The position numbers and the translations under genes are program-made. The notes beneath the pieces were generated by a model that was not told the DNA's origin, did no database searches, and was given only the letters and a program-made list of their open reading frames with translations. Below, piece by piece: positions 3 to 60,998 of a stretch of 64,000 bases of DNA. The stretch spans positions 60,342 through 124,341 of the forward strand of contig JACPBG010000002.1 in NCBI GenBank assembly GCA_016180435.1, read 5' to 3'. Position 1 is the first letter of the stretch. Each line of letters starts with the position of its first letter. This stretch comes from Candidatus Sungiibacteriota bacterium (lineage in GTDB: Bacteria; Patescibacteriota; Minisyncoccia; Sungbacterales; HO2-52-23).

Positions 3-947
3 CCTAACCCGGATGTGATGTGTAACCGTCATATTAAGTTCGGGCTGTTTCTTAAACGTGCTCTGAAAGAGGGGGCGGATTTTATAGCGACCGGACACTA
101 TGTGCGCTTAAGCGCAAGAACTAAGAGCTTAGAACTTAGAACTAAGAAAAATCTGATGCTAAGTTCTAAGTCCTATATTCTAAGTTCTGCGGCCGATGCC
201 GCCAAGGACCAGTCCTATTTCCTTTGGACTCTTGCGCAAGACCAATTAAAACATTGTCTTTTTCCGATCGGGGAATACACTAAGCCCGCGGTACGGGAAA
301 TGGCGCGAAAATTCGGTTTGCCGGTTGCGGAAAAGCCGGATTCGCAAGGAGTGTGTTTTATCGGGGAATTTGACATGAAAGAATTTTTAAAAAAGCGGAT
401 TCCAGAATCGCGCGGACCGGTTGTGACAACCAGCGGCAAAAAAGTGGGGGAGCATGAGGGGCTTTCGTTTTATACCATTGGACAGCGACATGGGATGGGG
501 ATTGGGGGCCGCCCCGCAGAGCGGGGCGAGCCTCGCCCCAAAGGGGCGGGCGGGATTCCATATTATGTCGTGGCTAAGGATTTTAAAACCGACACGCTTA
601 TTGTCGGAGAGGGGCCTTATGACGAGAAATTATTCAAGAAAGAACTTATCGCCACAAATGTAAATTGGATTTTCGGGAAAGAGCCAAAATTACCTTTAAA
701 ATGCGAGGCGCGAATTAGGTATCGCCAGCCGTTACAACGCTGTCGCGTTGAAGCAAATAAAGAACTTAGAACTAAGAACTTAGAAAGAAAACTAAGTTCT
801 AAGTTCTATATGCTAAATGCTTGCCGCGTCAAAGTTATTTTTGATGCGGTACAACGCGCCGTAACTCCCGGCCAGTCAGTGGTATTTTATCAGGGAGATG
901 AAATGTTGGGGGGCGGAATTATTTACCCCGTTAGAGATGCGGAATAA
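3..947 (+). CDS. mnmA: tRNA-specific 2-thiouridylase MnmA, 5'-truncated by the window edge
   Basis: The frame is open from nt 3. It carries the motifs NPDVMCNRHIKF, ATGHY, KDQSYFL, GQRHGMGIGG and TPGQSVVFY. It contains four repeat-derived segments (see findings). Confidence 0.9.
   Translation, partial: PNPDVMCNRHIKFGLFLKRALKEGADFIATGHYVRLSARTKSLELRTKKNLMLSSKSYILSSAADAAKDQSYFLWTLAQDQLKHCLFPIGEYTKPAVREMARKFGLPVAEKPDSQGVCFIGEFDMKEFLKKRIPESRGPVVTTSGKKVGEHEGLSFYTIGQRHGMGIGGRPAERGEPRPKGAGGIPYYVVAKDFKTDTLIVGEGPYDEKLFKKELIATNVNWIFGKEPKLPLKCEARIRYRQPLQRCRVEANKELRTKNLERKLSSKFYMLNACRVKVIFDAVQRAVTPGQSVVFYQGDEMLGGGIIYPVRDAE
116..189. repeat. R1 heptamer palindrome (TTAGAAC)n ... (GTTCTAA)n, in-frame inside mnmA
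   Basis: The sequence is agcttagaacttagaactaag ... gctaagttctaagtcc..ctaagttct. Confidence 0.85.
508..557. repeat. R2 GC-rich palindromic element, in-frame inside mnmA
   Basis: gccgccccgcagagcggggcgagcctcgccccaaaggggcgggcgggattc. It is near-identical to 54571-54621. Confidence 0.85.
759..830. repeat. R1 heptamer palindrome, second in-frame copy inside mnmA
   Basis: agaacttagaactaagaacttagaa ... ctaagttctaagttcta. Confidence 0.85.
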
Positions 948-11223: not shown

Positions 11224-11240
11224 GGCTCTTACGAGCCAGC

Positions 11241-11306
11241 ATCAAGAACTAAGATTTTAGAACTTAGCAAATTTTCTAAGTTCTAAGTTCTGGGTTCTAA
11301 GTTCTA
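11241..11306. repeat. R1 heptamer palindrome (rpmJ-rpsM spacer)
   Basis: aagaactaagattttagaacttag ... ctaagttctaagttctgggttctaagttct, then GTG. Confidence 0.85.
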
Positions 11307-11786: not shown

Positions 11787-12230
11787 TTGGGTAAAAAGCG
11801 TATCATAACTAAATCTACCGAGTCATCCGAATCGAAAAAATCCGATAGCCAGCCGCCAGCCGGAATTTCGGTAACGCGGCGTGGCATACTGCGCGGTTGC
11901 GCTTATATTCAGGCAACTTATAATAACACCATTATTACCATAACCGACGAAAAGGGCGGCGTGATAGCGTGGTCTTCGGCCGGGTCCGTTGGATTTTCGG
12001 GAACCAAGAAAGCCACTCCGTTTGCAGCAGCGCGAGTCGCGGAATTCCTTGCTGAAAAAATGCGTAAAGCCGGTATTCAGGAGCTTATGGTTTTTGTAAA
12101 AGGGGTTGGATCAGGGCGTGATTCGGCGATTCGTGCGCTTGCCAATCAGGGGTTTGCCATTTCGCGCATCAAAGATATTACCCCCATCCCGCATAACGGG
12201 CCGAGACCCAGGAAACCAAGAAGAGTATAA
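11787..12230 (+). CDS. rpsK: 30S ribosomal protein S11
   Basis: TTG start directly after the GCGAAGC hairpin. The sequence shows [24 protein letters not shown] and [17 protein letters not shown]. Confidence 0.9.
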
Positions 12231-12323
12231 AGCACTTAGAACTTAGAACCTAGAACTTAGAATTTATAATTAAAGTATTTACTAAGTTCTAAATACTAAG
12301 ATCTAAGTTCTTTTGCGAAGCAA
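12231..12323. repeat. R1 heptamer palindrome plus GCGAAGC mini-hairpin (rpsK-rpsD spacer)
   Basis: agcacttagaacttagaacctagaacttagaa ... ctaagttctaaatactaagatctaagttct-tttGCGAAGCaa-ATG. Confidence 0.9.
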
Positions 12324-14250: not shown

Positions 14251-14595
14251 ATGAGGAAGTTGAAAAAAGGGAGAAAATTTGGGAGAGAACGGGATCAAAG
14301 GAGGGCGTTACTTAAAAGTCTCGCCTCCTCATTTTTTATTGCGGGACGAATGAAAACAACGGAAGCCAAAGCCAAAGAACTCCGCCCGTATGTCGAGAAA
14401 TTCATTACCCGAGCCAAGGATCCGACACTCGCAAATCGAAGATTCATGCTGCGTTTTTTTTCGAGCGCAATTGTTGATAAAATTATTAAGCGTGGTGAGG
14501 AAATGCGTGAGAGAGCCGGAGGATATACCAGGGTTATTAAATTGGGACAGAGAAAACGAGATAGCGCGAGGATGGCGATATTGGAATTTGTTTAA
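14251..14595 (+). CDS. rplQ: 50S ribosomal protein L17
   Basis: MRKLKKGRKFGRERDQRRALLKSL and GGYTRVIKLGQRKRDSARMAILE. Confidence 0.92.
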   Translation: MRKLKKGRKFGRERDQRRALLKSLASSFFIAGRMKTTEAKAKELRPYVEKFITRAKDPTLANRRFMLRFFSSAIVDKIIKRGEEMRERAGGYTRVIKLGQRKRDSARMAILEFV

Positions 14596-14667
14596 AGAAC
14601 TTAGAACTTAGAACTTAGAACTTAGATATCTACTAAGTTTTAAATGCTAAGTTCTAAATGCTATGCG
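14596..14667. repeat. R1 heptamer palindrome (rplQ-rplM spacer)
   Basis: agaacttagaacttagaacttagaacttag ... ctaagttttaaatgctaagttctaaatgct, then a hairpin around the ATG. Confidence 0.9.
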
Positions 14668-38617: not shown

Positions 38618-38822
38618 GTTGTTTTCATCGCGGCGTGTCATTCAGGTCCTGGAGCGCCAGGGCTTTGTTTTTATTTCTCAACGGGGAAGTCACGCCAAAT
38701 ATCGCAAAACCGGTCCGCATACATTTACCGCGATTGTCCCTGTTGGGAAAAAGGAGATTCCACACGGAACTTTTCGTTCTATTGTACGCCAATCAGGATT
38801 ACAGGAGGAGAATTTTGAATAA
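38610..38822 (+). CDS. hicA: HicA mRNA-interferase toxin
   Basis: VIQVLERQGFVFISQRGSHAKYRK and KKEIPHGTFRSIVRQSGL. Confidence 0.8.
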   Translation: MPKLFSSRRVIQVLERQGFVFISQRGSHAKYRKTGPHTFTAIVPVGKKEIPHGTFRSIVRQSGLQEENFE

Positions 38823-40593
38823 AATTATAAGCAATCAAGAAACAAAAATCTGTCAAAATTGTAAAAACGAGTTCACCATTGAATCGGTTGACTTTGCATT
38901 CTACGAAAAAATCCGTGTGCCGCCGCCCACCTGGTGTCCGGAGTGTAGGATGGTGCGGAGGATGGTGTTTAGAAACGAGCGCAAACTTTTTCGCATAAAA
39001 AGCGCGAAATCCGGCAAAGAAATTTTATCGTTAAATCCGCCGGAAGCCGGTGTTGCGGTTTATGATGAAAAAGAATGGTGGTCGGATGATTGGGATGCCC
39101 GAGAATACGGGAGAGAATATGATTTCTCGCGGCCGTTTTTTGATCAGTTTTTCGAGTTGTCGAGGGTTGTTCCGCGTTACAGCCGCGATGTCCTGAATAT
39201 GGTCAATAGCGATTATTCCGCCAATGCCGCTGATCTAAAAAATTGTTACCTTTTGTTTAACTCAAATTACAGCGAGGATTCTTCATACGGAAACGCCGTG
39301 GATAAATCACATTTTTGTTTTGATAATTCGCATATTCAAAAATGTGAAAGATGTTACGAGTCATTTTGGCTGGCAAATTGTTACCAGACCCATTTTTCCT
39401 CCAAGTGCGAGGATTGCCAGAGTGTATGGTTCTCAAAAAATTTACGCGGATGCAGCAATTGTTTCGGATGCGTGAATCTGCGCGGGAAAAATTACTGCAT
39501 TTTCAACAAGCAATATTCCAAAGAAGATTATATCAAAAAGTTGGAATCGTTTTCTTTGCATACTTTTTCCGGAATCACGGCAGTAAAGAAAACGGCGCTG
39601 GATTTTTGGTTAAAATTTCCCAACAAATATATTGAGGGCGTTAAAAATCTAAATTCATCCGGGGAATATGTTACGCATTCCAAAAATGTGCATCATGGTT
39701 ATTTGGTGCGTGAAGGGGAAGATTTGCGCTATGTCCAGTATGTGCAGCTGCCGCCCTCTAAAGATCTGATGGATATAACTGTCGGAGGGAACGGCATGGA
39801 ATTATCATATGAAAATGCGACAAGCGGTTGGGGCAGGGTTTATAACTTGAAATTTTGTGCGGAATGCTGGCCGGAGGTTCGGGATATGGAATATTCAATG
39901 TTTTGTACCTCATCCTCCAATCTTTTCGGGTGCGTGGGTCTTCATAAAAAAGAATTTTGCATTTTAAATAGGCAATATACGAAAGAATCCTTTGACCAGC
40001 TCAAGATAAAGATTATTAAACATATGGATGAAATGCCATATGTTGATTCGCGCGGCCGGGCGTATAAATATGGGGAGTTTTTTCCGCCGGAATTGTCGCC
40101 GTTTGCCTATAATCAAACTATTGCCATTGAGCATTTTCCTTTAACCAAAGAAGAAGCCGAGAAAGCGGGGTACAGATGGCAGGAGCCGACAAGGCGCGAA
40201 TATGAAATAACCATGACTGTGGATGAAATTCCGGATTCGATCAGGGATATCCGCGAAGACATTCTAAAAGAAGTTATTCAATGCGCGAGTTGCAAACGGG
40301 CGTATCGCCTGATACGTTCCGAATTGGAATTTTTGAAGAAAGAAGGCATTCCGGCGCCCAGAGTTTGCATTGACTGCCGGCATGACGAGCGTATCAGCCA
40401 AAGAAACAAAGCAATTTTTTATTCGCGCCGATGCGCGTGCAGCGGCCAAAATTCCGGGAACGGGGCGTATAAAAATACTGCTACTCATTTCCATGGTCCA
40501 AATCAGTGCCTTAATGAATTTAAAACAAGTTATGCGCCGGACAGGCCGGAGATAGTGTATTGCGAAGCGTGCTACAATTCTGAAGTTGTATAA
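38815..40593 (+). CDS. large Cys-rich multi-zinc-ribbon protein, paralog P1 (592 aa)
   Basis: TTG at 38815 lies 4 nt after AGGAGGAG and overlaps the hicA stop by 8 nt. The N-terminus reads CQNC...FYEKIRVPPPTWCPECR, and the C-terminus has CASC...CIDCR and YCEACYNSEVV. Colinear with P2. Confidence 0.7.
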   Translation: MNKIISNQETKICQNCKNEFTIESVDFAFYEKIRVPPPTWCPECRMVRRMVFRNERKLFRIKSAKSGKEILSLNPPEAGVAVYDEKEWWSDDWDAREYGREYDFSRPFFDQFFELSRVVPRYSRDVLNMVNSDYSANAADLKNCYLLFNSNYSEDSSYGNAVDKSHFCFDNSHIQKCERCYESFWLANCYQTHFSSKCEDCQSVWFSKNLRGCSNCFGCVNLRGKNYCIFNKQYSKEDYIKKLESFSLHTFSGITAVKKTALDFWLKFPNKYIEGVKNLNSSGEYVTHSKNVHHGYLVREGEDLRYVQYVQLPPSKDLMDITVGGNGMELSYENATSGWGRVYNLKFCAECWPEVRDMEYSMFCTSSSNLFGCVGLHKKEFCILNRQYTKESFDQLKIKIIKHMDEMPYVDSRGRAYKYGEFFPPELSPFAYNQTIAIEHFPLTKEEAEKAGYRWQEPTRREYEITMTVDEIPDSIRDIREDILKEVIQCASCKRAYRLIRSELEFLKKEGIPAPRVCIDCRHDERISQRNKAIFYSRRCACSGQNSGNGAYKNTATHFHGPNQCLNEFKTSYAPDRPEIVYCEACYNSEVV

Positions 40594-40596
40594 TGA

Positions 40597-40723
40597 AAGC
40601 ACGCGGAGTCCCGCCTCAATTCAAGAATTGATTTTGTATATAGATGTAGTAAGCCGAAGGCGTTGCTGCGCTATGATCCTAATTTTACTGCTGACTTCGC
40701 ACGGAATTGAGGCGGACGAAAAT
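40597..40723. repeat. hairpin insert flanked by an imperfect 26-nt duplication of the P1 3' coding end
   Basis: Arms CCGCCTCAATTC (40611-22) and GAATTGAGGCGG (40704-15). The flanks are tgctacaattctgaagttgtataatga and tgctacaataatgaagtggtatgatg. Confidence 0.75.
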
Positions 40724-40750
40724 TGCTACAATAATGAAGTGGTATGATGT

Positions 40751-40779
40751 TTGACCGTTATATCTATGTTTGTTATTAT
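40751..40779 (+). promoter_or_regulatory. sigma-70-like promoter for the DUF2283/DUF4258 pair, with leaderless geometry
   Basis: TTGACC, 17 nt, TATTAT, 6 nt, ATG (40786). Confidence 0.6.
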
Positions 40780-40785
40780 TGAACC

Positions 40786-41013
40786 ATGGCTAATCATAAG
40801 CGACAATTTGTACATTATGATCCGGAGGCTGACGTTATTGCCATGTATAACGGTAAGGGGCGTGAAGAGGAGTTCGTGGAAGTGGCGCCCAATGTTTCTT
40901 TAGAATTAGACAAAAAAGGGTCGGTAATCGGTATTGAAATTTTGAACGCATCTAAAGTGTTGCGTCCTTTTTGGAACTCATTGCGTAAACGGCAATCTTC
41001 TTACATAAAGTAA
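40786..41013 (+). CDS. DUF2283-like small protein (putative antitoxin)
   Basis: YDPEADVIAMY and GSVIGIEILNASKVL. The next gene starts at the following nucleotide. Confidence 0.6.
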   Translation: MANHKRQFVHYDPEADVIAMYNGKGREEEFVEVAPNVSLELDKKGSVIGIEILNASKVLRPFWNSLRKRQSSYIK

Positions 41014-41304
41014 ATGGAAGTTCGCTACAGTCAACATCTTGAAATTCGTCTCACAATGCGCGGCATACCACACGAGTTGCCGCGCATTGTATATGAAAAT
41101 GCCAAGCGGCGGTTTCATGATACTGACTCGGATCTTGACATTGCGGTGCTGCGTACCGCTTTTTACGGACGGCAACGGGATGTTGTGGTTGCCTATCGTA
41201 TATATTCAGATTATGTTTTGCTGATTACTATCCACCCACTTAAAGAAGGACAATTCGAAAACCGGATTCGCTCTGGACGTTGGACGGAGATTCCATCGTT
41301 ATGA
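41014..41304 (+). CDS. DUF4258-like small protein (putative toxin)
   Basis: 96 aa with YSQHLEIRLTMRGIP and VVVAYRIYSDYVLLITIHP. Family recall is from memory. Confidence 0.55.
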   Translation: MEVRYSQHLEIRLTMRGIPHELPRIVYENAKRRFHDTDSDLDIAVLRTAFYGRQRDVVVAYRIYSDYVLLITIHPLKEGQFENRIRSGRWTEIPSL

Positions 41305-52465: not shown

Positions 52466-52553
52466 AAGCACTTAGAACTTAGAACTTAGAACTTAGAAAA
52501 ATAACTAAGATCTAAGTTCTTAATGCTAAGTTCTACGTTGCCGAGCAACGTTG
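52466..52553. repeat. R1 heptamer palindrome plus terminal mini-hairpin (upstream of trxB)
   Basis: agcacttagaacttagaacttagaacttagaa ... ctaagatctaagttcttaatgctaagttct-acgttgccgagcaacgt. Confidence 0.9.
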
Positions 52554-52637
52554 TTGTATGACGTTATCATCATCGGCGGCCCGCCCCGATTTCTGTCGGG
52601 GCGAGGCTCGCCCACAACCTTATGTTATATGATGTAA
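52554..52637 (+). pseudogene. relic 5' end of trxB (LYDVIIIGG...) disrupted by a GC-rich element
   Basis: TTG-TTG-tat-gac-gtt-atc-atc-atc-ggc-ggc runs into the R2-like ccgccccgatttctgtcggggcgaggctcgccc and stops at 52635-37. It is out of frame with the real trxB start at 52622. Confidence 0.6.
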
Positions 52638-53593
52638 TAGTGGTGGGCGGCGGACCGGCCGCAGTTGCGGCGGCGGTTTATTGCGCGCGCAAACGCCTAA
52701 AGACCGTATTGATTACCGAATCATTCGGCGGGCAATCTATTGTTTCGGATGATATTCAGAATTGGATCGGCGAGCCGCATATTTCCGGTTTTGATTTGGC
52801 TAAAAAATTTGAAGATCATGTGCGAACATATCCTGATGTGGTTGATATTAAGATGCCGGAAAGGGCGATGGAAGTAAAATCAATTAAATGTACGGACGAC
52901 ACCCGCAACTGCGATTTTCAGGTAAAAACCGAGCAAGGGAATATATATGAAGGAAAAGCGGTAATTCTTACTGCTGGCGCGAGCCGCCGAAAACTTGGCA
53001 TACCCGGAGAGGAAAGGTTAAACGGCAAAGGAGTGGCGTATTGTTCAACCTGTGATGCTCCGTTATTCTCCGGCAAAAAAGTCGCGGTGGTGGGTGGAGG
53101 AAATGCCGGGCTGGAAGCGGTGATTGATCTTTTCCCTTATGCCGAGGAAGTTTATCTGGTGGAATACGGGGAGGCATTGAAAGGCGATCCGGTTACGCAG
53201 GAGGAAATTAAGAAAAATCCGAAATTAAAAGCAGTTATTTTGAACGCGCAAACATTAGAAGTGCTCGGTGATAAATTCGTGGCCGGATTAAAATATAAGG
53301 ATCGCATAACCAATGAAGAAAAGATTTTGGAGGTTGACGGGATATTTGTTGAAATCGGCTCGGTTCCTAACTCCGAAATGGTTAAAGGTTTGGTGGACTT
53401 GGATAAATACGGGCAGGTGGTTATTGATTCCAAGCACGCCTCCACCTCGCATCCGGGAATTTTTGCCGCCGGAGACATTACGGATGATCCGTATAAGCAA
53501 AATAACATCTCGGCCGGGGATGCGGTAAAAGCCGCTTTGGGCGCGTATAATTATTTATTGCAGAGAAAAAAAGAGAGTCCGGCGAGCGAATAA
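52622..53593 (+). CDS. trxB: thioredoxin-disulfide reductase
   Basis: YDVIVVGGGPAAVAAAVY, the redox-active CSTCDA, VVGGGNAGLEA and AAGDITD. Confidence 0.9.
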   Translation: MLYDVIVVGGGPAAVAAAVYCARKRLKTVLITESFGGQSIVSDDIQNWIGEPHISGFDLAKKFEDHVRTYPDVVDIKMPERAMEVKSIKCTDDTRNCDFQVKTEQGNIYEGKAVILTAGASRRKLGIPGEERLNGKGVAYCSTCDAPLFSGKKVAVVGGGNAGLEAVIDLFPYAEEVYLVEYGEALKGDPVTQEEIKKNPKLKAVILNAQTLEVLGDKFVAGLKYKDRITNEEKILEVDGIFVEIGSVPNSEMVKGLVDLDKYGQVVIDSKHASTSHPGIFAAGDITDDPYKQNNISAGDAVKAALGAYNYLLQRKKESPASE

Positions 53594-54015: not shown

Positions 54016-55410
54016 ATGTCAACATTCTTCGAAAACACTAAAAAATTTATTGAAGACGCCGTGCGTATCGCCTATATTCCGGGCGATATTTTAGGACGTT
54101 TGGAAAAACCGGATAAAGTATTAGAATTTGAAATTGCGGTTGGTGATAACCCCGTTAGAGACCCGATGCCTATGGCATCGGCAGACGCCGAAGGGCGTCT
54201 TGTCTCTAACGGGGCGAGAAAATTTCAAGCATGGCGTGTCCAACATAATAACATCCTTGGTCCTTACAAAGGTGGAATCCGCTATCATCCGGATTCAAAT
54301 TTGGATGAGGTAAAAGCGCTGGCCTCTTTGATGACTTTGAAAACCTCCCTTGCCGGGATTCTTTTTGGCGGAGCTAAAGGCGCGGTAAGAGTTGATCCGC
54401 GTAAATTATCCCTGCAGGAATTGGAAGAATTATCGCGCATGTACGTCCGTGCAATTTGGCAAGAAATCGGGCCGGAAAAAGATGTTCCGGCGCCGGATGT
54501 CGGCACTACCCCGCAAATTATGGATTGGATGACGGACGAATATTCGAAACTCATCGGAAAATTGAGTCCGGCCGCCCAGCAGAGTGGGGCGAGCCTCGCC
54601 CAAAATGGGCGGGCGGGATTCACTGGAAAATCTATAGAAAAAGGCGGTTCCCGCGGCCGCGATATTGCCACCGGTTTTGGCGGGTATGTAATTTTGAGAG
54701 AATTTTTAAATCTAAGTTCTAAGTTCTTAGTTCTAAGTTCTGAATCGCAACTAGTGGTTGCGATTCAAGGTTTCGGTAATGTCGGCGCAAATATCGCTAA
54801 AATCTTATATGAAAAAGGATTTAAAATCGTGGCCATTTCCGATTCCAAGGGGGCGCTTTATGAGGAAGATGGCATTGATATTAAAAAAGTTTTGGATGTA
54901 AAAGAAAAAACCGGCATTATAGATCGCAACAAGTGCTATGCGGTTTCCGAGGAGCGGCTGGCATCCGGTACTCCCTGTCGCGAATTTACCAACGATGATT
55001 TATTGCAAATGCCGGTGGATATTTTGATTCCGGCTGCGCTTGAAAATGTTATCAATGAAGCGAACGCGGAAAAAATTAGAGCTAAAGTAATTTTGGAAAT
55101 GGCCAATGGTCCGGTTACTCCCGAAGCTGAAAAAATATTCACTAAGCGAGGAATTGAGGTGCTACCTGATATTTTAGCCAATAGCGGGGGAGTGGTTGGA
55201 TCGTATTTTGAATGGGTGCAAAATCGTAAAGGAGAGCAATGGAGCGAGGAGGAGGTGCTTGCGAAAATTGATGAAAAATTGACCGAGGCGTTTCAGAGTG
55301 TACAAAAAATTAAGGAGGAATGCAATGTTTCGTGGCGTATGGCATCATACGTACGGGCGATTAAGAGGGTTGCGGAAGGGAATAAAAATCCGCCTTTTGG
55401 GGCGGTATAA
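54016..55410 (+). CDS. gdhA: Glu/Leu/Phe/Val-family glutamate dehydrogenase
   Basis: GPYKGGIRYHP, GGAKGAV, QGFGNVG and ANGPVTPEA. It contains three repeat-derived in-frame inserts. Confidence 0.9.
   Translation: MSTFFENTKKFIEDAVRIAYIPGDILGRLEKPDKVLEFEIAVGDNPVRDPMPMASADAEGRLVSNGARKFQAWRVQHNNILGPYKGGIRYHPDSNLDEVKALASLMTLKTSLAGILFGGAKGAVRVDPRKLSLQELEELSRMYVRAIWQEIGPEKDVPAPDVGTTPQIMDWMTDEYSKLIGKLSPAAQQSGASLAQNGRAGFTGKSIEKGGSRGRDIATGFGGYVILREFLNLSSKFLVLSSESQLVVAIQGFGNVGANIAKILYEKGFKIVAISDSKGALYEEDGIDIKKVLDVKEKTGIIDRNKCYAVSEERLASGTPCREFTNDDLLQMPVDILIPAALENVINEANAEKIRAKVILEMANGPVTPEAEKIFTKRGIEVLPDILANSGGVVGSYFEWVQNRKGEQWSEEEVLAKIDEKLTEAFQSVQKIKEECNVSWRMASYVRAIKRVAEGNKNPPFGAV
54150..54214. repeat. 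R7-type element in-frame inside gdhA
   Basis: CCCCGTTAGAGAC-ccgatgcctatggcatcgg-cagacgccgaagggcgtct-TGTCTCTAACGGGG. Confidence 0.8.
54571..54621. repeat. R2 GC-rich element in-frame inside gdhA
   Basis: gccgcccagcagagtggggcgagcctcgcccaaaatgggcgggcgggattc. Compare 508-557. Confidence 0.85.
54709..54766. repeat. R1 right arm plus terminal hairpin, in-frame inside gdhA
   Basis: aatctaagttctaagttcttagttctaagttct-GAATCGCAAC-tagt-GGTTGCGATTC. Confidence 0.8.
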
Positions 55411-55646: not shown

Positions 55647-55749
55647 ATTCCAATTCTCTATTTTAGTGTGCTATAATTAAGAGTATATGAAACCTGTAAA
55701 AATTGCAATGTAATAAAATAATCCCGACTTTTCGGGATTTATATGCATA

Positions 55750-55986: not shown

Positions 55987-56023
55987 TGTGATACCTCTAA
56001 ATAAAGTGCTATAATTAGCATAT

Positions 56024-57034
56024 ATGAAACCCACAAAAATTGCAATAAATGGTTTTGGTCGCATCGGCCGCTCGTTTTTCCGGGATACGTTTGAATTGCC
56101 TGGATTGGATGTGGTTGCGGTAAATGATCTTACTGATCCAAAGACATTGGCATATCTTTTAAAATACGACAGCGTTTACGGCCGTTATTCCAAGTCCGTT
56201 GAGGCTAAAGATGGTCATTTTACCGTGGATGGGCAGGAGATAAAAGTATATGCGGAAAAAGATCCCGCGCGCCTGCCGTGGAAAGAACTCGGCATTGATA
56301 TCGTGGTAGAATCCACCGGTTTTTTTGCCGATGGCGCCAAAGCCAAAGCTCATTTGGATGCCGGAGCCAAACGCGTGGTTATAACAGCTCCGGCTAAAGG
56401 AGATGTGGTAACCGCGCTTGTAGGAGTTAATGATGACCGGTTTGACGGCAAAAATCCGATTACTTGCAATGCATCCTGCACCACTAATTCCGTGGCTCCG
56501 GTTATGCAGATTATGCTGGATAATTTCGGAGTGAAGCGCGCAGTAATGACCACGGTTCACGGATACACCGCGACCCAAAAATTGGTTGATGGGCCGGATG
56601 AAAAAGATCCTCGTCGGGGACGCGCAGCCGCGGCAAATATCGTGCCATCCACAACCGGTGCTGCCGAGGCGGTGATTAAATCAATTCCAGAATTGGAAGG
56701 AAAATTCCAAGCAGAATCTGTGCGCGTGCCGACAATTACGGGGTCCTTGAGCATTATGACGGTAATGACCGAGAAAAAGGCATCAGAAAAAGAAGTAAAT
56801 GACGTTTTTCGGAAATCCGCCCAAGACCCGCGCTGGTCAAAAATCTTGAAAGTTATCGAAGACCCGATTGTATCATCTGACATTATAGGCGAGCCGTATG
56901 GAGCGATTGTGGATTTGACACTTACTCGTACTCTCGGTGACGATCTTGTCAAAGTTTTTTCATGGTACGACAACGAAGCTGGCTACACCGCGACATTGGT
57001 GGAGCATGTGAGGAGGATTGCGGAAAATTTATAA
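56024..57034 (+). CDS. gap: type I glyceraldehyde-3-phosphate dehydrogenase
   Basis: INGFGRIGR, the active site ASCTTN and WYDNEAGY. Confidence 0.92.
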   Translation: MKPTKIAINGFGRIGRSFFRDTFELPGLDVVAVNDLTDPKTLAYLLKYDSVYGRYSKSVEAKDGHFTVDGQEIKVYAEKDPARLPWKELGIDIVVESTGFFADGAKAKAHLDAGAKRVVITAPAKGDVVTALVGVNDDRFDGKNPITCNASCTTNSVAPVMQIMLDNFGVKRAVMTTVHGYTATQKLVDGPDEKDPRRGRAAAANIVPSTTGAAEAVIKSIPELEGKFQAESVRVPTITGSLSIMTVMTEKKASEKEVNDVFRKSAQDPRWSKILKVIEDPIVSSDIIGEPYGAIVDLTLTRTLGDDLVKVFSWYDNEAGYTATLVEHVRRIAENL

Positions 57035-60200: not shown

Positions 60201-60212
60201 AGTTTCTAAAAT

Positions 60213-60998
60213 ATGCATCGCAATACTTTATTGTTAAGATTCTTCGCGGCAGCCATCCTTATCGGGATGTTTATTTTTTTAGGGTGGACTTCAATCGGAG
60301 GATCTGTACGCGGCGGAATTATTTATATTCTCTCTCCTTTATTGCGCTTATCGCAAGAAATAGGGATAAGCGCCGGCTTTTCCTCTTATAGAATTTCTGA
60401 AGATATGGCCAAGGAACTGGCCGGAGAAAATCAGGAATTATCGTCGTTGCGCGTCGAGGTTGAGTTTTTGCGCAAAGAAAATGAGGATTTGCGTTCGGCA
60501 CTTGGATTTAAGAAAGAATCCGGCCTCAATCTTTTTCCGGCAGATGTTGTCAGTTTTGCCAATGAATTAGGGCGCGAATTTTTGATCATAGCTGCGGGTG
60601 GGGAGTTCGGCATCCGCGAAGGAGACATGGCAGTGACGGCTGACCGCGTATTGGTTGGCATGGTGCGCGAGGCGGATCAGGGGTTTTCAAAAATAGAGAT
60701 CGCTTCCAATCCGCTGATTTCGTATGAAGTTAGATTAGTTCCGCTCGGAATTCCGGCCATCGCCAAAGGCATGGGAGGACGCACGTTTTCGCTTGAACTC
60801 ATTCCGCAGGATGCCGCGGTTAAAAAAGGCGATCTGGTTGCAGTTTCGGTTCCGGGAACGGATGAGCAGCTGCTTTTGGCGGAAATTGCCTCTGAAAAGA
60901 TCCTATCCGGTTCTATTTTTCAGGAGGCGCGCGCAGTTATGCTTTTGCGCCCCGAATTTCTTGAATCCGTTTTAATCATTCGGTCTAAGAAACCATAA
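60213..60998 (+). CDS. mreC: rod-shape protein MreC
   Basis: N-terminal TM helix, a coiled-coil (ELSSLRVEVEFLRKENEDLR) and a beta-rich C-terminus. It sits after mreB. Confidence 0.65.
   Translation: MHRNTLLLRFFAAAILIGMFIFLGWTSIGGSVRGGIIYILSPLLRLSQEIGISAGFSSYRISEDMAKELAGENQELSSLRVEVEFLRKENEDLRSALGFKKESGLNLFPADVVSFANELGREFLIIAAGGEFGIREGDMAVTADRVLVGMVREADQGFSKIEIASNPLISYEVRLVPLGIPAIAKGMGGRTFSLELIPQDAAVKKGDLVAVSVPGTDEQLLLAEIASEKILSGSIFQEARAVMLLRPEFLESVLIIRSKKP

What the first reader, a model, noticed from the sequence alone, without database searches (positions are those of the whole stretch)
40570..40749. 127-nt hairpin insert flanked by an imperfect 26-nt duplication of the P1 C-terminal codons
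- P1 ends tgc-tac-aat-tct-gaa-gtt-gta-taa (CYNSEVV*).
- After a 127-nt insert with 12-bp arms (CCGCCTCAATTC / GAATTGAGGCGG), the sequence tgc-tac-aat-aat-gaa-gtg-gta-tga (CYNNEVV*) appears again.
- The downstream relic is closer to the P2 ending (CYNNEVI*).
- So the element arrived with, or created, a long duplication that preserved an intact gene end.
- The same logic is seen at the trxB 5' end (52551-52651).
- Duplications of ~26 nt are far longer than ordinary transposon target-site duplications.
Basis: seen in the sequence. Interest (0 to 1): 0.5.

Follow-up and report, generated by a model that had tools for sequence, protein, structure and literature searches.

The report
Hairpin module that displaces a gene's end
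A conserved 110-nt stem-loop, carrying its own copy of the last codons of a Cys-rich CPR-bacterial gene, has been copied between diverged paralogs by recombination and leaves the old gene end behind as a short non-coding relic, so the "duplication" is a recombination scar and not a transposon footprint.

Summary
P1 (38815-40593) ends at 40570-40593. A 130-nt insert follows, containing a hairpin at 40608-40717 with 15/14-nt arms. A second gene-end copy lies at 40717-40747 (26/33 identical).

It is not a target-site duplication made by a transposon.
- Across 13 relic/functional pairs, here and in other CPR genomes, 47 of 77 differences fall on third codon positions (p=6e-7). The relics are therefore displaced ends of diverged functional alleles.
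- At trxB, the relic differs from the closest ortholog's real 5' tip at 2/23 positions, and the working tip differs at 7/23.

The last 50-70 nt of the gene plus the hairpin are 92-100% identical behind paralogs whose bodies are only 40-70% identical, so the module is copied by recombination. The 15-bp stem is fully paired in three diverged variants, with compensatory and G-U changes.

Every copy found follows a P1-family stop codon. The exceptions are two microhomology-deletion derivatives. More distant orthologs lack the module.

Best model (inferred): one-ended homologous repair or gene conversion from a diverged homolog, rejoined out of register next to a hairpin.

Verdict: moderately interesting, a new variant of known gene-end-restoring insertions. 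The enzymology is unresolved.

The parts
38815..40593 (+). P1: 592-aa Cys-rich CPR-specific protein (TTG start), with Zn-ribbon-like CxxC motifs at both termini. No Pfam family.
   Evidence: (100% match to P0001, Candidatus Sungbacteria MAG). The AlphaFold model shows only a weak beta-helix resemblance.
40548..40593 (+). Last ~46 nt of P1 (..EIVYCEACYNSEVV*). It is co-transferred with the hairpin and acts as the left homology arm. It is almost invariant, synonymous sites included, in genes that carry the element.
   Evidence: Paralog bodies are 40-70% identical, rising to 85-100% over the last 50-70 nt.
40570..40593 (+). Functional gene end TGCTACAATTCTGAAGTTGTATAA (CYNSEVV*).
40594..40607 (+). 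14-nt spacer TGAAAGCACGCGGA. AGCACGC is complementary to GCGTGCT in the gene end. An ATG overlaps the stop codon (TAATG) and opens a 12-codon ORF (40593-40631) of unknown significance.
   Evidence: The spacer is conserved in all variants.
40608..40717 (+). Conserved stem-loop. Closing helix 40608-40622 / 40704-40717 (C40612 bulged). Inner hairpin at about 40645-40670 around GCCGAAGGC.
   Evidence: The 15-bp helix is 100% paired in six distinct sequences representing three diverged variants (W; B/A/D; L117). Three pairs changed on both sides and three changed to G-U. 0/500 shuffles reach the observed number of compensated pairs.
40717..40747 (+). Relic gene end C GAA AAT TGC TAC AAT AAT GAA GTG GTA TGA ((C)ENCYNNEVV*). 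It is non-coding here and acts as the right homology arm of the module.
   Evidence: Relics show coding-type variation in other contexts. There is no conserved ORF, and the frame differs between W and L005.
40751..40779 (+). Promoter-like site TTGACC-17-TATTAT (TG-extended) in front of the DUF2283 gene. The downstream gene does not need the relic as a promoter.
40786..41304 (+). DUF2283 gene plus a 96-aa ORF (toxin-antitoxin-like pair), lying between P1 and its tandem paralog P2 (41377-43101).
52554..52579 (+). Relic 5' tip of trxB (TTGTATGACGTTATCATCATCGGCGG, LYDVIIIGG).
   Evidence: It differs at 2/23 positions from the real tip of the closest ortholog, L240.
52580..52621 (+). GC-rich hairpin insert (related to the repeats at 507-558 and 54570-54621) plus a short leader, between the trxB relic and the functional start.
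52622..53593 (+). trxB-like FAD oxidoreductase. Its first ~30 nt (MLYDVIVVGGG) are a newcomer tip.
   Evidence: The functional tip differs at 7/23 positions from the ortholog. The IVVGGG N-terminus did not recur among the 29 of the 120 listed homologs whose N-termini were inspected.

Best explanation
The region is a tip-replacement module. It consists of a substitute copy of the last codons of a P1-family gene, a 14-nt spacer and a stable, strand-specific stem-loop of about 110 nt.

Shown:
- The module sits directly behind P1-family genes in a narrow Sungbacteria-like clade.
- It is nearly identical behind paralogs that are otherwise about 50% identical.
- Its left boundary is a graded crossover inside the conserved C-terminal codons. 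Its right boundary lies in the downstream gene-end copy.
- That downstream copy (the relic) differs from working ends mainly at synonymous positions and usually keeps its stop codon.
- The stem is maintained by compensatory and G-U changes on the + strand.
- At trxB, the relic matches the ancestral tip far better than the working tip does.

Inferred mechanism:
- A break near the gene tip, or an incoming DNA strand, pairs with a diverged homolog (a paralog or foreign allele) within the conserved terminal codons.
- Synthesis or strand exchange runs outward through the donor's tip and its flanking hairpin.
- It then rejoins the recipient out of register by short homology, at or within a few nucleotides of the outer foot of the hairpin, 17-48 nt inside the recipient's own tip.
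- The gene keeps an intact donor-derived end, and the old end is left downstream as a relic.
- Once formed, the module carries homology to any P1-family gene end on both sides (gene tip on the left, relic on the right). Ordinary homologous recombination or gene conversion can therefore copy it into other paralogs and strains, refreshing the 3' part of the relic each time.

The hairpin is probably kept because it works as a 3'-UTR RNA stem (stability or processing). Alternatively, only stable hairpins may define such junctions.
For: 1. Conserved architecture. The same architecture occurs in a relative with 81% protein identity (L005), with arms CCGCCCC/GGGGCGG. Homology stops right after the relic.

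2. Exclusive association.
- A 20-mer metagenome scan gave 9 true hits. Eight of them directly follow a P1-family stop codon; the ninth, L028, is the deletion derivative described in point 9.
- A covariance model finds no other copy in the window or in 80 other P1-family loci.

3. Copying between paralogs.
- B (P1) vs A/D (P1', at other loci: PolA-ParDE and the atp operon) have gene bodies 40-70% identical.
- The last 50-70 nt of the gene plus the insert are 92-100% identical, and identity is random after the relic.
- L117 carries a diverged hairpin (52-63% identity in 60-nt windows against the D copy) but a -60..+33 region nearly identical to W (2 differences by inspection), which indicates mosaic recombination.

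4. Coding-type divergence of relics.
- 47/77 differences are at codon position 3 (p=6e-7); 40/57 when the hypervariable codon is excluded (p=1.5e-8).
- 35 of 55 changed codons are synonymous.
- There are Ser TCA<->AGC switches, and the stop codon is kept in 8/9 relics.
- Relic-type ends (CESCYNSEVV, CESCYNAEVV, CENCYN..) exist as real ends of other family members.

5. trxB test. Ortholog L240 has no insert. Its tip differs from the W relic at 2/23 positions and from the W functional tip at 7/23. LYDVIIIGGG is the most frequent N-terminus among the homologs inspected.

6. Recurrence elsewhere.
- Independent relics with other hairpin spacers occur at P1-family 3' ends: L041, L058/L118, L064, L107 (two relics), L119, and a second relic in L019/L114.
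- They also occur at 5' ends (L081, L082).
- Every spacer contains a stable hairpin that abuts the relic or lies within about 10 nt of it.
- In L064 the relic's stop still overlaps the ATG of the next tandem gene, showing that it is the original end in its native context.

7. Stem covariation.

8. Empty states in more distant orthologs.

9. Instability consistent with repeats. Logan unitigs break with a 30-nt overlap at 40583-40612. There are microhomology deletions in L031 and L028.
Against: - No enzyme or break site is identified, so the repair or template-switch steps are inference.
- For P1 itself the ortholog test is indecisive. Against the closest empty ortholog, L010, the relic differs at 8/30 positions and the working end at 6/30 (counted by eye).
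- Several relics start at the same place (CGAR, 31 nt before the stop). A random out-of-register join does not predict this, although lengths of 17-48 nt also occur.
- The W and L117 relics differ at seven of 33 positions, six of them third-codon positions. This hints at continued constraint or repeated refreshing rather than simple decay.
- The different body/downstream combinations (L009, L022, L027, L115, L026 vs L117) could be metagenome assembly chimeras at a ~190-nt repeat rather than real recombinants.
- No donor locus carrying the hairpin without a relic was found.
- The origin of the hairpin sequence is unknown; it has no similarity to anything else in the window.
Confidence: 0.5

Rival explanations
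1. Remnant of a decayed tandem paralog. P1 was followed by another family member whose body was deleted, leaving a few 5' nucleotides (ATG overlapping the stop; GTCCCGCC = the V-P-P codons) and its last ~10 codons. The hairpin is what is left in between.
For: - The family forms tight tandem arrays with overlapping stop/start codons.
- A TAATG overlap and a 12-codon ORF are conserved between W and L005.
- A 65-codon C-terminal remnant of a P2-like gene exists at L114 1830-2024.
- L028 joins an intact N-terminus to the hairpin at GTCCCGCC.
Against: - The insert has no detectable similarity to P1-family DNA.
- L028 is better explained as a 1.7-kb microhomology deletion of the A locus: its upstream region is 384/400 identical to L114. 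By my own estimate (about 1,700 gene 8-mers x about 123 insert 8-mers / 4^8, roughly 3), an 8-nt match between the gene and the insert is expected by chance.
- It does not explain near-identical modules behind diverged paralogs at unrelated loci, nor the GC-rich hairpins.
- It is refuted for trxB. There the gene body is orthologous (92%) and only the tip is replaced.
Confidence: 0.13
2. A miniature, non-autonomous integrative element moved in trans by a site-specific (tyrosine-type) recombinase whose attachment site is the P1-family gene end. The working end would be attL (restored by the element) and the relic attR.
For: - Restoring a gene end from an element-borne copy is typical of integrase-type islands (own knowledge: e14 in icd, dusA-specific islands, tRNA-gene islands).
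- The gene end has partial dyad symmetry (TGCTACAAT / GTTGTATAA; seen in sequence).
- The 5' part of the relic (GAC GAA AGT) is constant while its 3' part varies between contexts.
- Relics pile up in series, as in tandem integrations (L107, L019).
Against: - There is no integrase or cargo between the copies or in the neighbourhood.
- 130-190 nt is too small for a double-stranded circular intermediate.
- The presumed overlap region (codons 7-8) is the most variable part of the repeat.
- Identity between paralog copies extends about 46-70 nt leftwards with a graded boundary, as in homologous exchange.
- Unrelated spacers of 32-114 nt behave in the same way in other genomes.
Confidence: 0.1
3. 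A functional cis-acting RNA (3'-UTR stem-loop or small RNA) of P1-family mRNAs, in which the second gene-end copy is itself a working part. It could be a repeated protein- or RNA-binding motif, or an extended -10 element (TGnTAYAAT).
For: - The stem is conserved with compensatory and G-U changes on the + strand only.
- The insert is 77-79% identical between W and L005, while other intergenic DNA does not align.
- The relic is better conserved than the hairpin interior between W and L117.
- All relics begin with TGYTAYAAT.
Against: - There is no Rfam match, even at E<=10.
- There is no U-tract terminator.
- In W the downstream gene has its own better promoter.
- The relic carries a 5-nt deletion in the A lineage in four assemblies (L019, L023, L114, L116), and the stop is lost in L005.
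- Variation with 3-nt periodicity is not expected for an RNA motif.
- This rival is partly compatible with the best explanation, since the hairpin may well be functional.
Confidence: 0.12
4. A MITE-like transposon with 15-bp terminal inverted repeats that makes an unusually long (26-33 nt) target-site duplication.
For: - Inverted repeats flank a short non-coding unit, with direct repeats outside it.
- Some IS families make long, variable duplications (own knowledge: the IS1634/IS1549 group).
Against: - The repeats are not decayed copies of one sequence: differences are 61-70% at third codon positions and stops are retained.
- At trxB the working copy, not the relic, is the divergent one.
- The inverted repeat is not terminal on the left (14-nt spacer).
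- There are no copies at unrelated targets.
- The unit shared between paralogs includes 50-70 nt of coding sequence.
Confidence: 0.04
5. Programmed translational bypass. Ribosomes would take off at the GAA before the first hairpin and land on the GAA that follows the big hairpin, translating the relic.
For: - Identical GAA codons abut the feet of the two hairpins.
- The coding-like conservation of the relic starts at that GAA.
- The last 46 nt of the gene are conserved at the nucleotide level.
Against: - The first copy already gives a complete canonical C-terminus with a stop codon, so a hop would serve no purpose.
- There is no stop or slow codon after the putative take-off codon.
- The relic is frame-destroyed by a 5-nt deletion in the A lineage.
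- The gap would be about 150 nt, three times that of the known cases (own knowledge: T4 gene 60).
Confidence: 0.02

Closest known systems
Integrase-type genomic islands and prophages that insert into the 3' or 5' end of a gene and supply a replacement end (e.g. e14 in icd, dusA-specific elements, tRNA-gene islands). Own knowledge.
   Same: - The gene stays intact because the incoming DNA brings its own version of the tip.
- The original tip is left as a short relic on the far side.
- The relic and the working tip differ like alleles, not like decayed duplicates.
- Successive events can pile up relics.
   Different: - Only 130 nt lie between the copies: no integrase, no cargo, no defined crossover core.
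- The left junction is a graded homologous crossover.
- Many unrelated hairpin spacers behave alike, and both gene ends are affected in several gene families.
Homing of introns, inteins and free-standing endonuclease genes, with co-conversion of flanking sequence. Own knowledge.
   Same: - An insertion is copied into homologous, previously empty sites by recombinational repair.
- Flanking coding sequence is co-converted.
- The insertion does not inactivate the gene.
   Different: - There is no splicing and no endonuclease.
- Gene function is preserved by a built-in substitute tip rather than by removing the insert from the RNA or protein.
Small palindromic repeats of bacteria: Correia/NEMIS, ERIC, REP/BIME and Rickettsia palindromic elements. 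Own knowledge.
   Same: - Size of about 100-150 nt, long inverted repeats, and location at gene ends.
- Likely transcribed as a hairpin.
- The same genome also has GC-rich hairpin repeats inserted in frame within genes, as Rickettsia palindromic elements are.
   Different: - Those elements are dispersed at many unrelated sites and have 0-2 nt target duplications.
- This one is found only behind one gene family and always with a gene-end relic.
Integron attC sites. Own knowledge.
   Same: - A structure-conserved but sequence-variable hairpin of 57-141 nt immediately 3' of a gene.
- Strand-specific folding.
- The downstream context changes right after it.
   Different: - The core sites RYYYAAC / GTTRRRY are absent (by inspection).
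- No intI gene was seen in the Pfam annotations inspected, and there is no cassette array.
- A duplicated gene end is not an integron feature.
Homology-facilitated illegitimate recombination, and template-switch (MMBIR/FoSTeS-type) insertion-duplication scars. Own knowledge.
   Same: - One side is joined by homology and the other by short or no homology.
- Foreign or ectopic sequence is inserted, with local duplication possible.
- Junctions lie near hairpin-forming, GC-rich sequence.
   Different: - Those are described as sporadic laboratory or disease events.
- Here the product is structurally conserved, recurs at the tips of particular conserved genes, and appears to propagate secondarily by homologous recombination.

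Membership tests
Transposon / MITE with target-site duplication | The two flanking repeats derive from one target sequence, so they are identical at insertion and decay neutrally afterwards. | tested here: not met
   47/77 differences fall at third codon positions, 35/55 changed codons are synonymous, and stops are kept in 8/9 relics. At trxB the relic, not the working copy, matches the ortholog.
Transposon / MITE with target-site duplication | Copies dispersed at many unrelated target sites. | tested here: not met
   All 9 true metagenome hits lie at P1-family genes: 8 directly follow the stop codon, and L028 is a deletion derivative. The element is single copy in the window, and there is no covariance-model hit in 609 kb of other loci.
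Transposon / MITE with target-site duplication | Terminal inverted repeats lie at the very ends of the mobile unit. | tested here: not met
   A 15-bp inverted repeat exists, but the unit shared between paralogs starts 50-70 nt inside the gene and includes a 14-nt spacer before the left arm.
Transposon / MITE with target-site duplication | An autonomous partner encoding a transposase with the same ends. | tested here: inconclusive
   None is present in the window or the fetched loci. A 14-nt arm scan of viral contigs gave only single-arm matches per locus, as expected by chance for a 14-nt pattern. The large collections could not be rescanned.
Integrase-type integrative element (attL/attR around a restored gene end) | The gene end is reconstituted by an element-borne copy, and the original end is displaced. 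| tested here: met
   (the L064 relic is still coupled to the next gene's ATG).
Integrase-type integrative element (attL/attR around a restored gene end) | A recombinase gene and cargo lie between the att sites, or there is a demonstrable trans-acting integrase. | tested here: not met
   Only 130 nt lie between the copies, and the neighbours are redox, toxin-antitoxin and sugar-metabolism genes. A trans-acting enzyme cannot be tested with these tools.
Integron attC site | Conserved R''/R' core sites (RYYYAAC ... GTTRRRY) at the base of the hairpin, and a nearby intI/attI. | tested here: not met
   The bases of the hairpin read GCGGAGTCCCG... and ...GGGACGAAAGTTGY. No integrase appears in the Pfam annotations of the window ORFs scanned or of the loci fetched with the look-up of encoding contigs.
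Any described RNA family (Rfam 15) | A covariance-model match at the gathering score. | tested here: not met
   There are no hits in the whole window. Only one chance-level hit (rliG, 12 bits, E=2.8) appears in 40480-40830.
Intrinsic terminator | A GC-rich stem directly followed by a U tract. | tested here: not met
   No terminator-like site is called on the + strand in 40300-41100. The 3' arm is followed by GAAAAUUGCUAC.
Programmed translational bypass (T4 gene 60 type) | The gap interrupts the reading frame; there are matched take-off and landing codons with a stop after take-off; and the landing frame is conserved. | tested here: not met
   The first copy ends the protein canonically. The landing frame is destroyed by a 5-nt deletion in four assemblies. 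Only the matched GAA codons are present.
Diversity-generating retroelement (VR/TR pair) | Repeats of ~100 nt or more that differ at adenines of the template, and a reverse transcriptase nearby. | tested here: not met
   The repeats are 24-33 nt and their differences are not adenine-specific. No RT domain is found in the neighbours.
Ectopic gene conversion / homologous-recombination tract between paralogs | A sharply bounded block of near identity inside otherwise diverged homologs, with mosaic variants. | tested here: met
   Identity is 40-70% in the gene bodies, 92-100% from about -60 to the relic, and random beyond it. There are mosaic combinations of variant sites, and L026 vs L117 are 98-100% identical up to -420 and then diverge. 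Caveat: some mosaics may be assembly chimeras.

The most novel reading that the evidence does not exclude
CPR bacteria may harbour a previously undescribed, enzyme-free kind of selfish or semi-selfish DNA: 'gene-tip cassettes'. Each consists of a stable hairpin plus a substitute copy of the first or last ~10-20 codons of a conserved gene. They would spread between paralogs and genomes purely by recombination with the conserved tip. They would keep the host gene intact and leave stacks of displaced tips behind. This would be a general mode of insertion at both 5' and 3' gene ends: seen here for the P1 family, trxB and possibly gap (the gap case rests on a single repeat pair).
Probability: 0.3. 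Interest if true: 0.7.

Novelty: new variant of a known kind. Interest (0 to 1): 0.55.

Why it matters
If the reading is right, short relics of gene tips next to hairpins record recombination between diverged alleles and paralogs in uncultivated CPR bacteria. They show which tip is ancestral and which is the newcomer, and they can be dated and counted.

This matters in three ways:
- It gives a sequence-only handle on how often these reduced genomes patch conserved genes with foreign DNA.
- It explains recurrent assembly breaks at such loci.
- It warns annotators that 'target-site duplications' of 25-45 nt at gene ends may be allelic scars rather than transposon footprints.

It would also add a mechanism by which non-coding hairpins spread without a transposase.

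Tried and rejected
- **Rfam.** Gathering mode on the window and E<=10 on 40480-40830 found nothing.
- **tRNA/tmRNA scan.** None found.
- **Coding or read-through hypothesis.** A 53-codon ORF runs through the insert in W, but L005 has stops and a different relic frame.
- **Local origin of the insert.** I asked whether it is copied, directly or inverted, from nearby sequence or from the P1/P2 genes. blastn-short found nothing above chance.
- **Diverged copies.** A covariance model (R1) run over 88 sources (609 kb) found only the known copies and the L031 deletion variant.
- **Insertions inside P1-family genes.** The long tblastn spans turned out to be tandem paralog arrays.
- **Relic as promoter.** In W the scan finds a better promoter downstream of the relic.
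- **Viral-contig scan with the 14-nt arm.** 120+ single chance hits, uninformative.
- **Literature searches.** Searches for long target duplications, HFIR and CPR palindromic repeats gave nothing directly relevant.
- **P1 structure prediction.** I looked for a nuclease or recombinase. There was only a weak left-handed beta-helix resemblance, with no significant match.
- **Ortholog test for the P1 relic.** Compared with L010 it was indecisive (6 vs 8 differences in 30 nt).
Full report
**1. What is in the sequence**

The window comes from a Candidatus Sungbacteria (CPR/Patescibacteria) MAG. The P1 protein is 100% identical to P0001, annotated HYT98_02345.

- P1 spans 38815-40593 on the + strand and encodes 592 aa. 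It ends tgc tac aat tct gaa gtt gta taa at 40570-40593.
- This is the canonical end of the family. All 31 aligned homologs stop right after CYxxEVx.
- After the stop comes a 14-nt spacer (40594-40607).
- Next is a stem-loop at 40608-40717. Its closing helix is 15/14 nt (GTCCCGCCTCAATTC / GAATTGAGGCGGAC, one bulged C).
- Directly at the foot of the helix lies a second copy of the gene end: C GAA AAT TGC TAC AAT AAT GAA GTG GTA TGA (40717-40747).
- The two copies share 20/24 positions, or 26/33 when extended.
- In about 140 family gene ends and 398 gene ends overall, the best downstream match is normally 12-17. The duplication is therefore not chance.
- The relic is not closer to P2. It differs from the P1 end and the P2 end at 4/24 positions each.

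**2. The element elsewhere**

A relative whose P1 is 81% identical (L005-L009; also the species representative L031) keeps the synteny Pyr_redox-DsbA-P1 and has the same architecture.
- Its arms are CCGCCCC/GGGGCGG and its relic is TGTTATAATGCGGAGGTTGTATTATGA.
- DNA identity between the two genomes is about 75-85% in genes and 77-79% in the insert.
- Other intergenic DNA, and everything after the relic, does not align.

An exact 20-mer scan of metagenomes gave nine true hits.
- Eight of them directly follow a P1-family stop codon and are followed by a relic; the ninth, L028, is a deletion derivative described in section 7.
- At least four different relic-plus-downstream blocks exist.

Further look-ups found the element behind a different paralog, P1' (607-617 aa).
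- It occurs at a PolA-ParDE locus (L114-L116) and inside an atp operon (L026, L117).
- L117 carries a strongly diverged variant.

More distant orthologs (79%, 75%, 71%) have neither insert nor relic. A covariance model built from the copies finds nothing else in the window or in 80 other family loci. Rfam has no match.

The element is therefore lineage-restricted and strictly tied to this gene family.

**3. A conserved stem**

The alignment holds six distinct sequences in three diverged variants: W, the B/A/D group, and L117.
- All 15 pairs of the closing helix are kept.
- Three pairs changed on both sides (C-G to A-U, C-G to U-A, and the series U-A/U-G/C-G).
- Three more changed to G-U.
- 0 of 500 shuffles reach the observed number of compensated pairs. 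Slid controls pair at about 40%.
- The G-U pairs work only on the + strand. The structure therefore matters in the P1-sense RNA, or in + strand single-stranded DNA.
- It is not an intrinsic terminator, because there is no U tract.

**4. The duplication is not a target-site duplication**

I collected 13 relic/working-tip pairs. They are five contexts of this element; independent cases at other family genes (L041, L058, L107 twice, and a second relic in L019/L114); 5' cases (L081, L082); and trxB and gap in this window.
- 47 of 77 differences lie at third codon positions (p=6e-7). Excluding the hypervariable codon, it is 40 of 57.
- 35 of 55 changed codons are synonymous.
- Serine switches between TCN and AGY.
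- 8 of 9 3' relics keep a stop codon.
- Relic-type ends such as CESCYNSEVV or CENCYN.. exist as real ends in other family members.

A duplication made in situ and then decaying would not look like this. The relics were functional tips of diverged alleles for most of their history.

**5. Direct test at trxB**

- The closest ortholog with DNA available (L240, 92% protein identity) has no hairpin and no relic.
- Its tip, TATGACGTTATTATCATAGGCGG, differs from W's relic at 2/23 positions and from W's working tip at 7/23.
- LYDVIIIGGG (the relic type) is the most frequent N-terminus among the homologs inspected. W's IVVGGG did not recur among the 29 N-termini inspected.

The relic is therefore the ancestral tip. 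The GC-rich hairpin plus the present tip is the newcomer, while the rest of the gene is orthologous. This rules out a decayed second gene for that locus and makes an in-situ duplication unlikely.

For P1 the same test is indecisive (6 vs 8 differences in 30 nt against L010).

**6. The module moves by recombination**

- P1 (B type) and P1' (A/D types) are 40-70% identical along the gene.
- Identity rises to 85-100% over the last 50-70 nt and stays at 92-100% through the spacer and hairpin. It drops to random within or after the relic.
- The left boundary is graded, as expected for a homologous crossover in the conserved codons EIVYCEACYN.
- Variant sites occur in mosaic combinations (TCTGAA/GCAGAG, CAC/CAG/CAT, CCT/CCC and others).
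- L117 shares a nearly identical tract from -60 to +33 with W (2 differences by inspection), but its hairpin is only 52-63% identical to the D copy.
- L026 and L117 are 98-100% identical for 2.2 kb upstream, up to about 420 nt before the stop, and then diverge completely.
- In W's own samples, the de Bruijn unitigs on either side overlap by exactly k-1 = 30 nt at 40583-40612. This means another sequence in the sample shares that 30-mer.

Caveat: a ~190-nt near-identical repeat invites chimeric metagenome contigs. The minority body/downstream combinations (L009, L022, L027, L115) may not be real. The majority ones are seen in several independent assemblies.

**7. A recurrent phenomenon**

The family forms tight tandem arrays and is flanked by toxin-antitoxin modules. 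Other lineages carry relics with unrelated spacers:
- L041: 36-nt spacer.
- L058 and L118: homologous spacers.
- L064: a 21-bp perfect palindrome, then a 48-nt relic whose stop still overlaps the ATG of the next tandem gene.
- L107: two relics in series.
- L119.
- The A locus: a second relic, CYNSEII*.

5' relics occur too.
- L081 and L082: the first 11 codons, then hairpins, then the real start.
- W's gap: promoter plus 8 codons, 337 nt upstream.

Every spacer folds into a stable hairpin that abuts the relic or lies within about 10 nt of it. Relic lengths are 17-48 nt. A 65-codon remnant of a P2-like gene also exists.

The locus is also deletion-prone.
- L031 lost the gene end and two thirds of the hairpin between CCGGAGATA and CCGCGAGATA.
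- L028 is the A locus with 1.7 kb deleted between two GTCCCGCC sites.

**8. Mechanism (inferred)**

The simplest scheme covering these facts is one-ended homologous repair, gene conversion or transformation with a diverged homolog.
- Pairing occurs in the conserved terminal codons.
- Copying or exchange runs outward through the donor's tip and its flanking hairpin.
- It rejoins the recipient by short homology, at or within a few nucleotides of the outer foot of the hairpin, a few tens of nucleotides inside the recipient's own tip.

The result is a gene with the donor tip and donor hairpin, followed by the old tip and the old flank. Such a product has homology to any family gene end on both sides, so it can then be copied into other paralogs by ordinary recombination. 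That explains the identical modules, the constant 5' part of the relic (GAC GAA AGT), its variable 3' part, and the stacks of relics.

Some points are not explained:
- why several relics start at the same CGAR;
- where the hairpin sequence came from;
- which enzymes act.

**9. Alternatives and verdict**

The alternatives are a decayed paralog remnant, a mini integrative element, a purely functional RNA, a MITE with a long duplication, and translational bypass. They are weighed in the rival list. The MITE and bypass readings fail tested features.

P1 itself shows no sign of being a nuclease or recombinase. It has no Pfam family, and its model resembles left-handed beta-helix proteins only weakly.

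The finding is real and more interesting than a simple insertion. It is best filed as a new variant of gene-end-restoring insertion and gene-conversion scars, not as a new transposon class.

Noticed in passing
window 507-558 and 54570-54621: Two copies (92% identical) of a ~52-nt GC-rich double-hairpin repeat lie in frame inside protein-coding genes. One is an MnmA-like tRNA methyltransferase (15-947) and the other a glutamate dehydrogenase (54016-55410). They add about 17 residues each, much as Rickettsia palindromic elements do. A related, shorter copy is the insert at trxB (52580-52615).
   Followed up: partly
window 54708-54745: The glutamate dehydrogenase gene also contains an in-frame stretch of the heptamer-based repeat (TCTAAGTTCTAAGTTC...). 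Elsewhere in the window that repeat forms long inverted-repeat hairpins after genes (families D1/D2: 116-188, 760-821, 11237-11305, 12230-12311, 14595-14662, 52466-52534).
   Followed up: no
window 55669-55712 vs 56003-56046: The promoter-like TGCTATAAT, the leader and the first 8 codons of gap (GAPDH, 56024-57034) are duplicated 337 nt upstream (relic MKPVKIAM*). A terminator-like hairpin and what looks like a small minus-strand ORF lie in between. This is the same tip-relic logic on a larger scale.
   Followed up: partly
window 52554-52650 and L240 1398-1425: The trxB 5' relic matches the real tip of the closest ortholog at 21/23 positions, while W's working tip matches at only 16/23. The working tip (IVVGGG) did not recur among the 29 homolog N-termini inspected.
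   Followed up: yes
L031 4090-4210 (Parcubacteria bacterium GW2011_GWA2_45_30): This species representative has a ~126-nt deletion between CCGGAGATA (in the gene) and CCGCGAGATA (in the hairpin loop). It removes the last 16 codons of P1 and most of the hairpin, so the gene is truncated there, or the assembly is wrong.
   Followed up: partly
L028 (contig end) and L114 2501-4513: L028 is the PolA-ParDE-P1a locus with about 1.7 kb deleted between GTCCCGCC in codons 31-33 of the gene and the same 8-mer at the start of the hairpin. This is a population variant lacking the gene.
   Followed up: yes
L114 1830-2024 (also L115, L028): A 65-codon C-terminal remnant of a P2-like family member (..CPFCRIEEK..IIYCKECYLKEII*) lies between polA and a ParE-type toxin-antitoxin pair. 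It is a longer decaying fragment of the same family.
   Followed up: partly
L040, L046, L056, L058, L061, L068, L077, L088, L092, L099, L101, L104, L105: The P1 family typically occurs as tandem arrays of 2-5 diverged paralogs with 0-12 nt between genes or overlapping stop/start codons. Toxin-antitoxin modules (HicAB, PIN, ParE, PemK, HigB, DUF2283) are very often wedged next to them.
   Followed up: partly
L107 4289-4440: Three gene-end copies lie in series (CYQQEVV*, CYQSEGA*, CYQTEVA*), separated by 32- and 38-nt spacers. Both spacers begin GAGGCCGAAGTGCC and contain a small hairpin, giving a CRISPR-like look, but the repeats are only about 65-70% alike.
   Followed up: partly
L082 2330-2420; L026 after the relic; L064 4300-4346: Perfect palindromes of 18-47 nt are frequent in these CPR intergenic regions (e.g. 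GCTGTTATGCTATAGCATAACAGC, and a 21-bp-stem palindrome after a stop codon). Their origin and role are unknown.
   Followed up: no
window 60212-60238 vs about 216 nt upstream: The first 27 nt of the ORF at 60213-60998 have an 18/27 match upstream that begins with the same ATGCATCGC. This may be another 5' tip relic. It is borderline relative to background.
   Followed up: no
window 40593-40631: A 12-codon ORF (MKARGVPPQFKN*) starts at an ATG overlapping the P1 stop (TAATG). It is conserved in position in L005 (MKAGGVPPQFRY*) and extended to 36 codons in L117. Its significance is unknown.
   Followed up: partly
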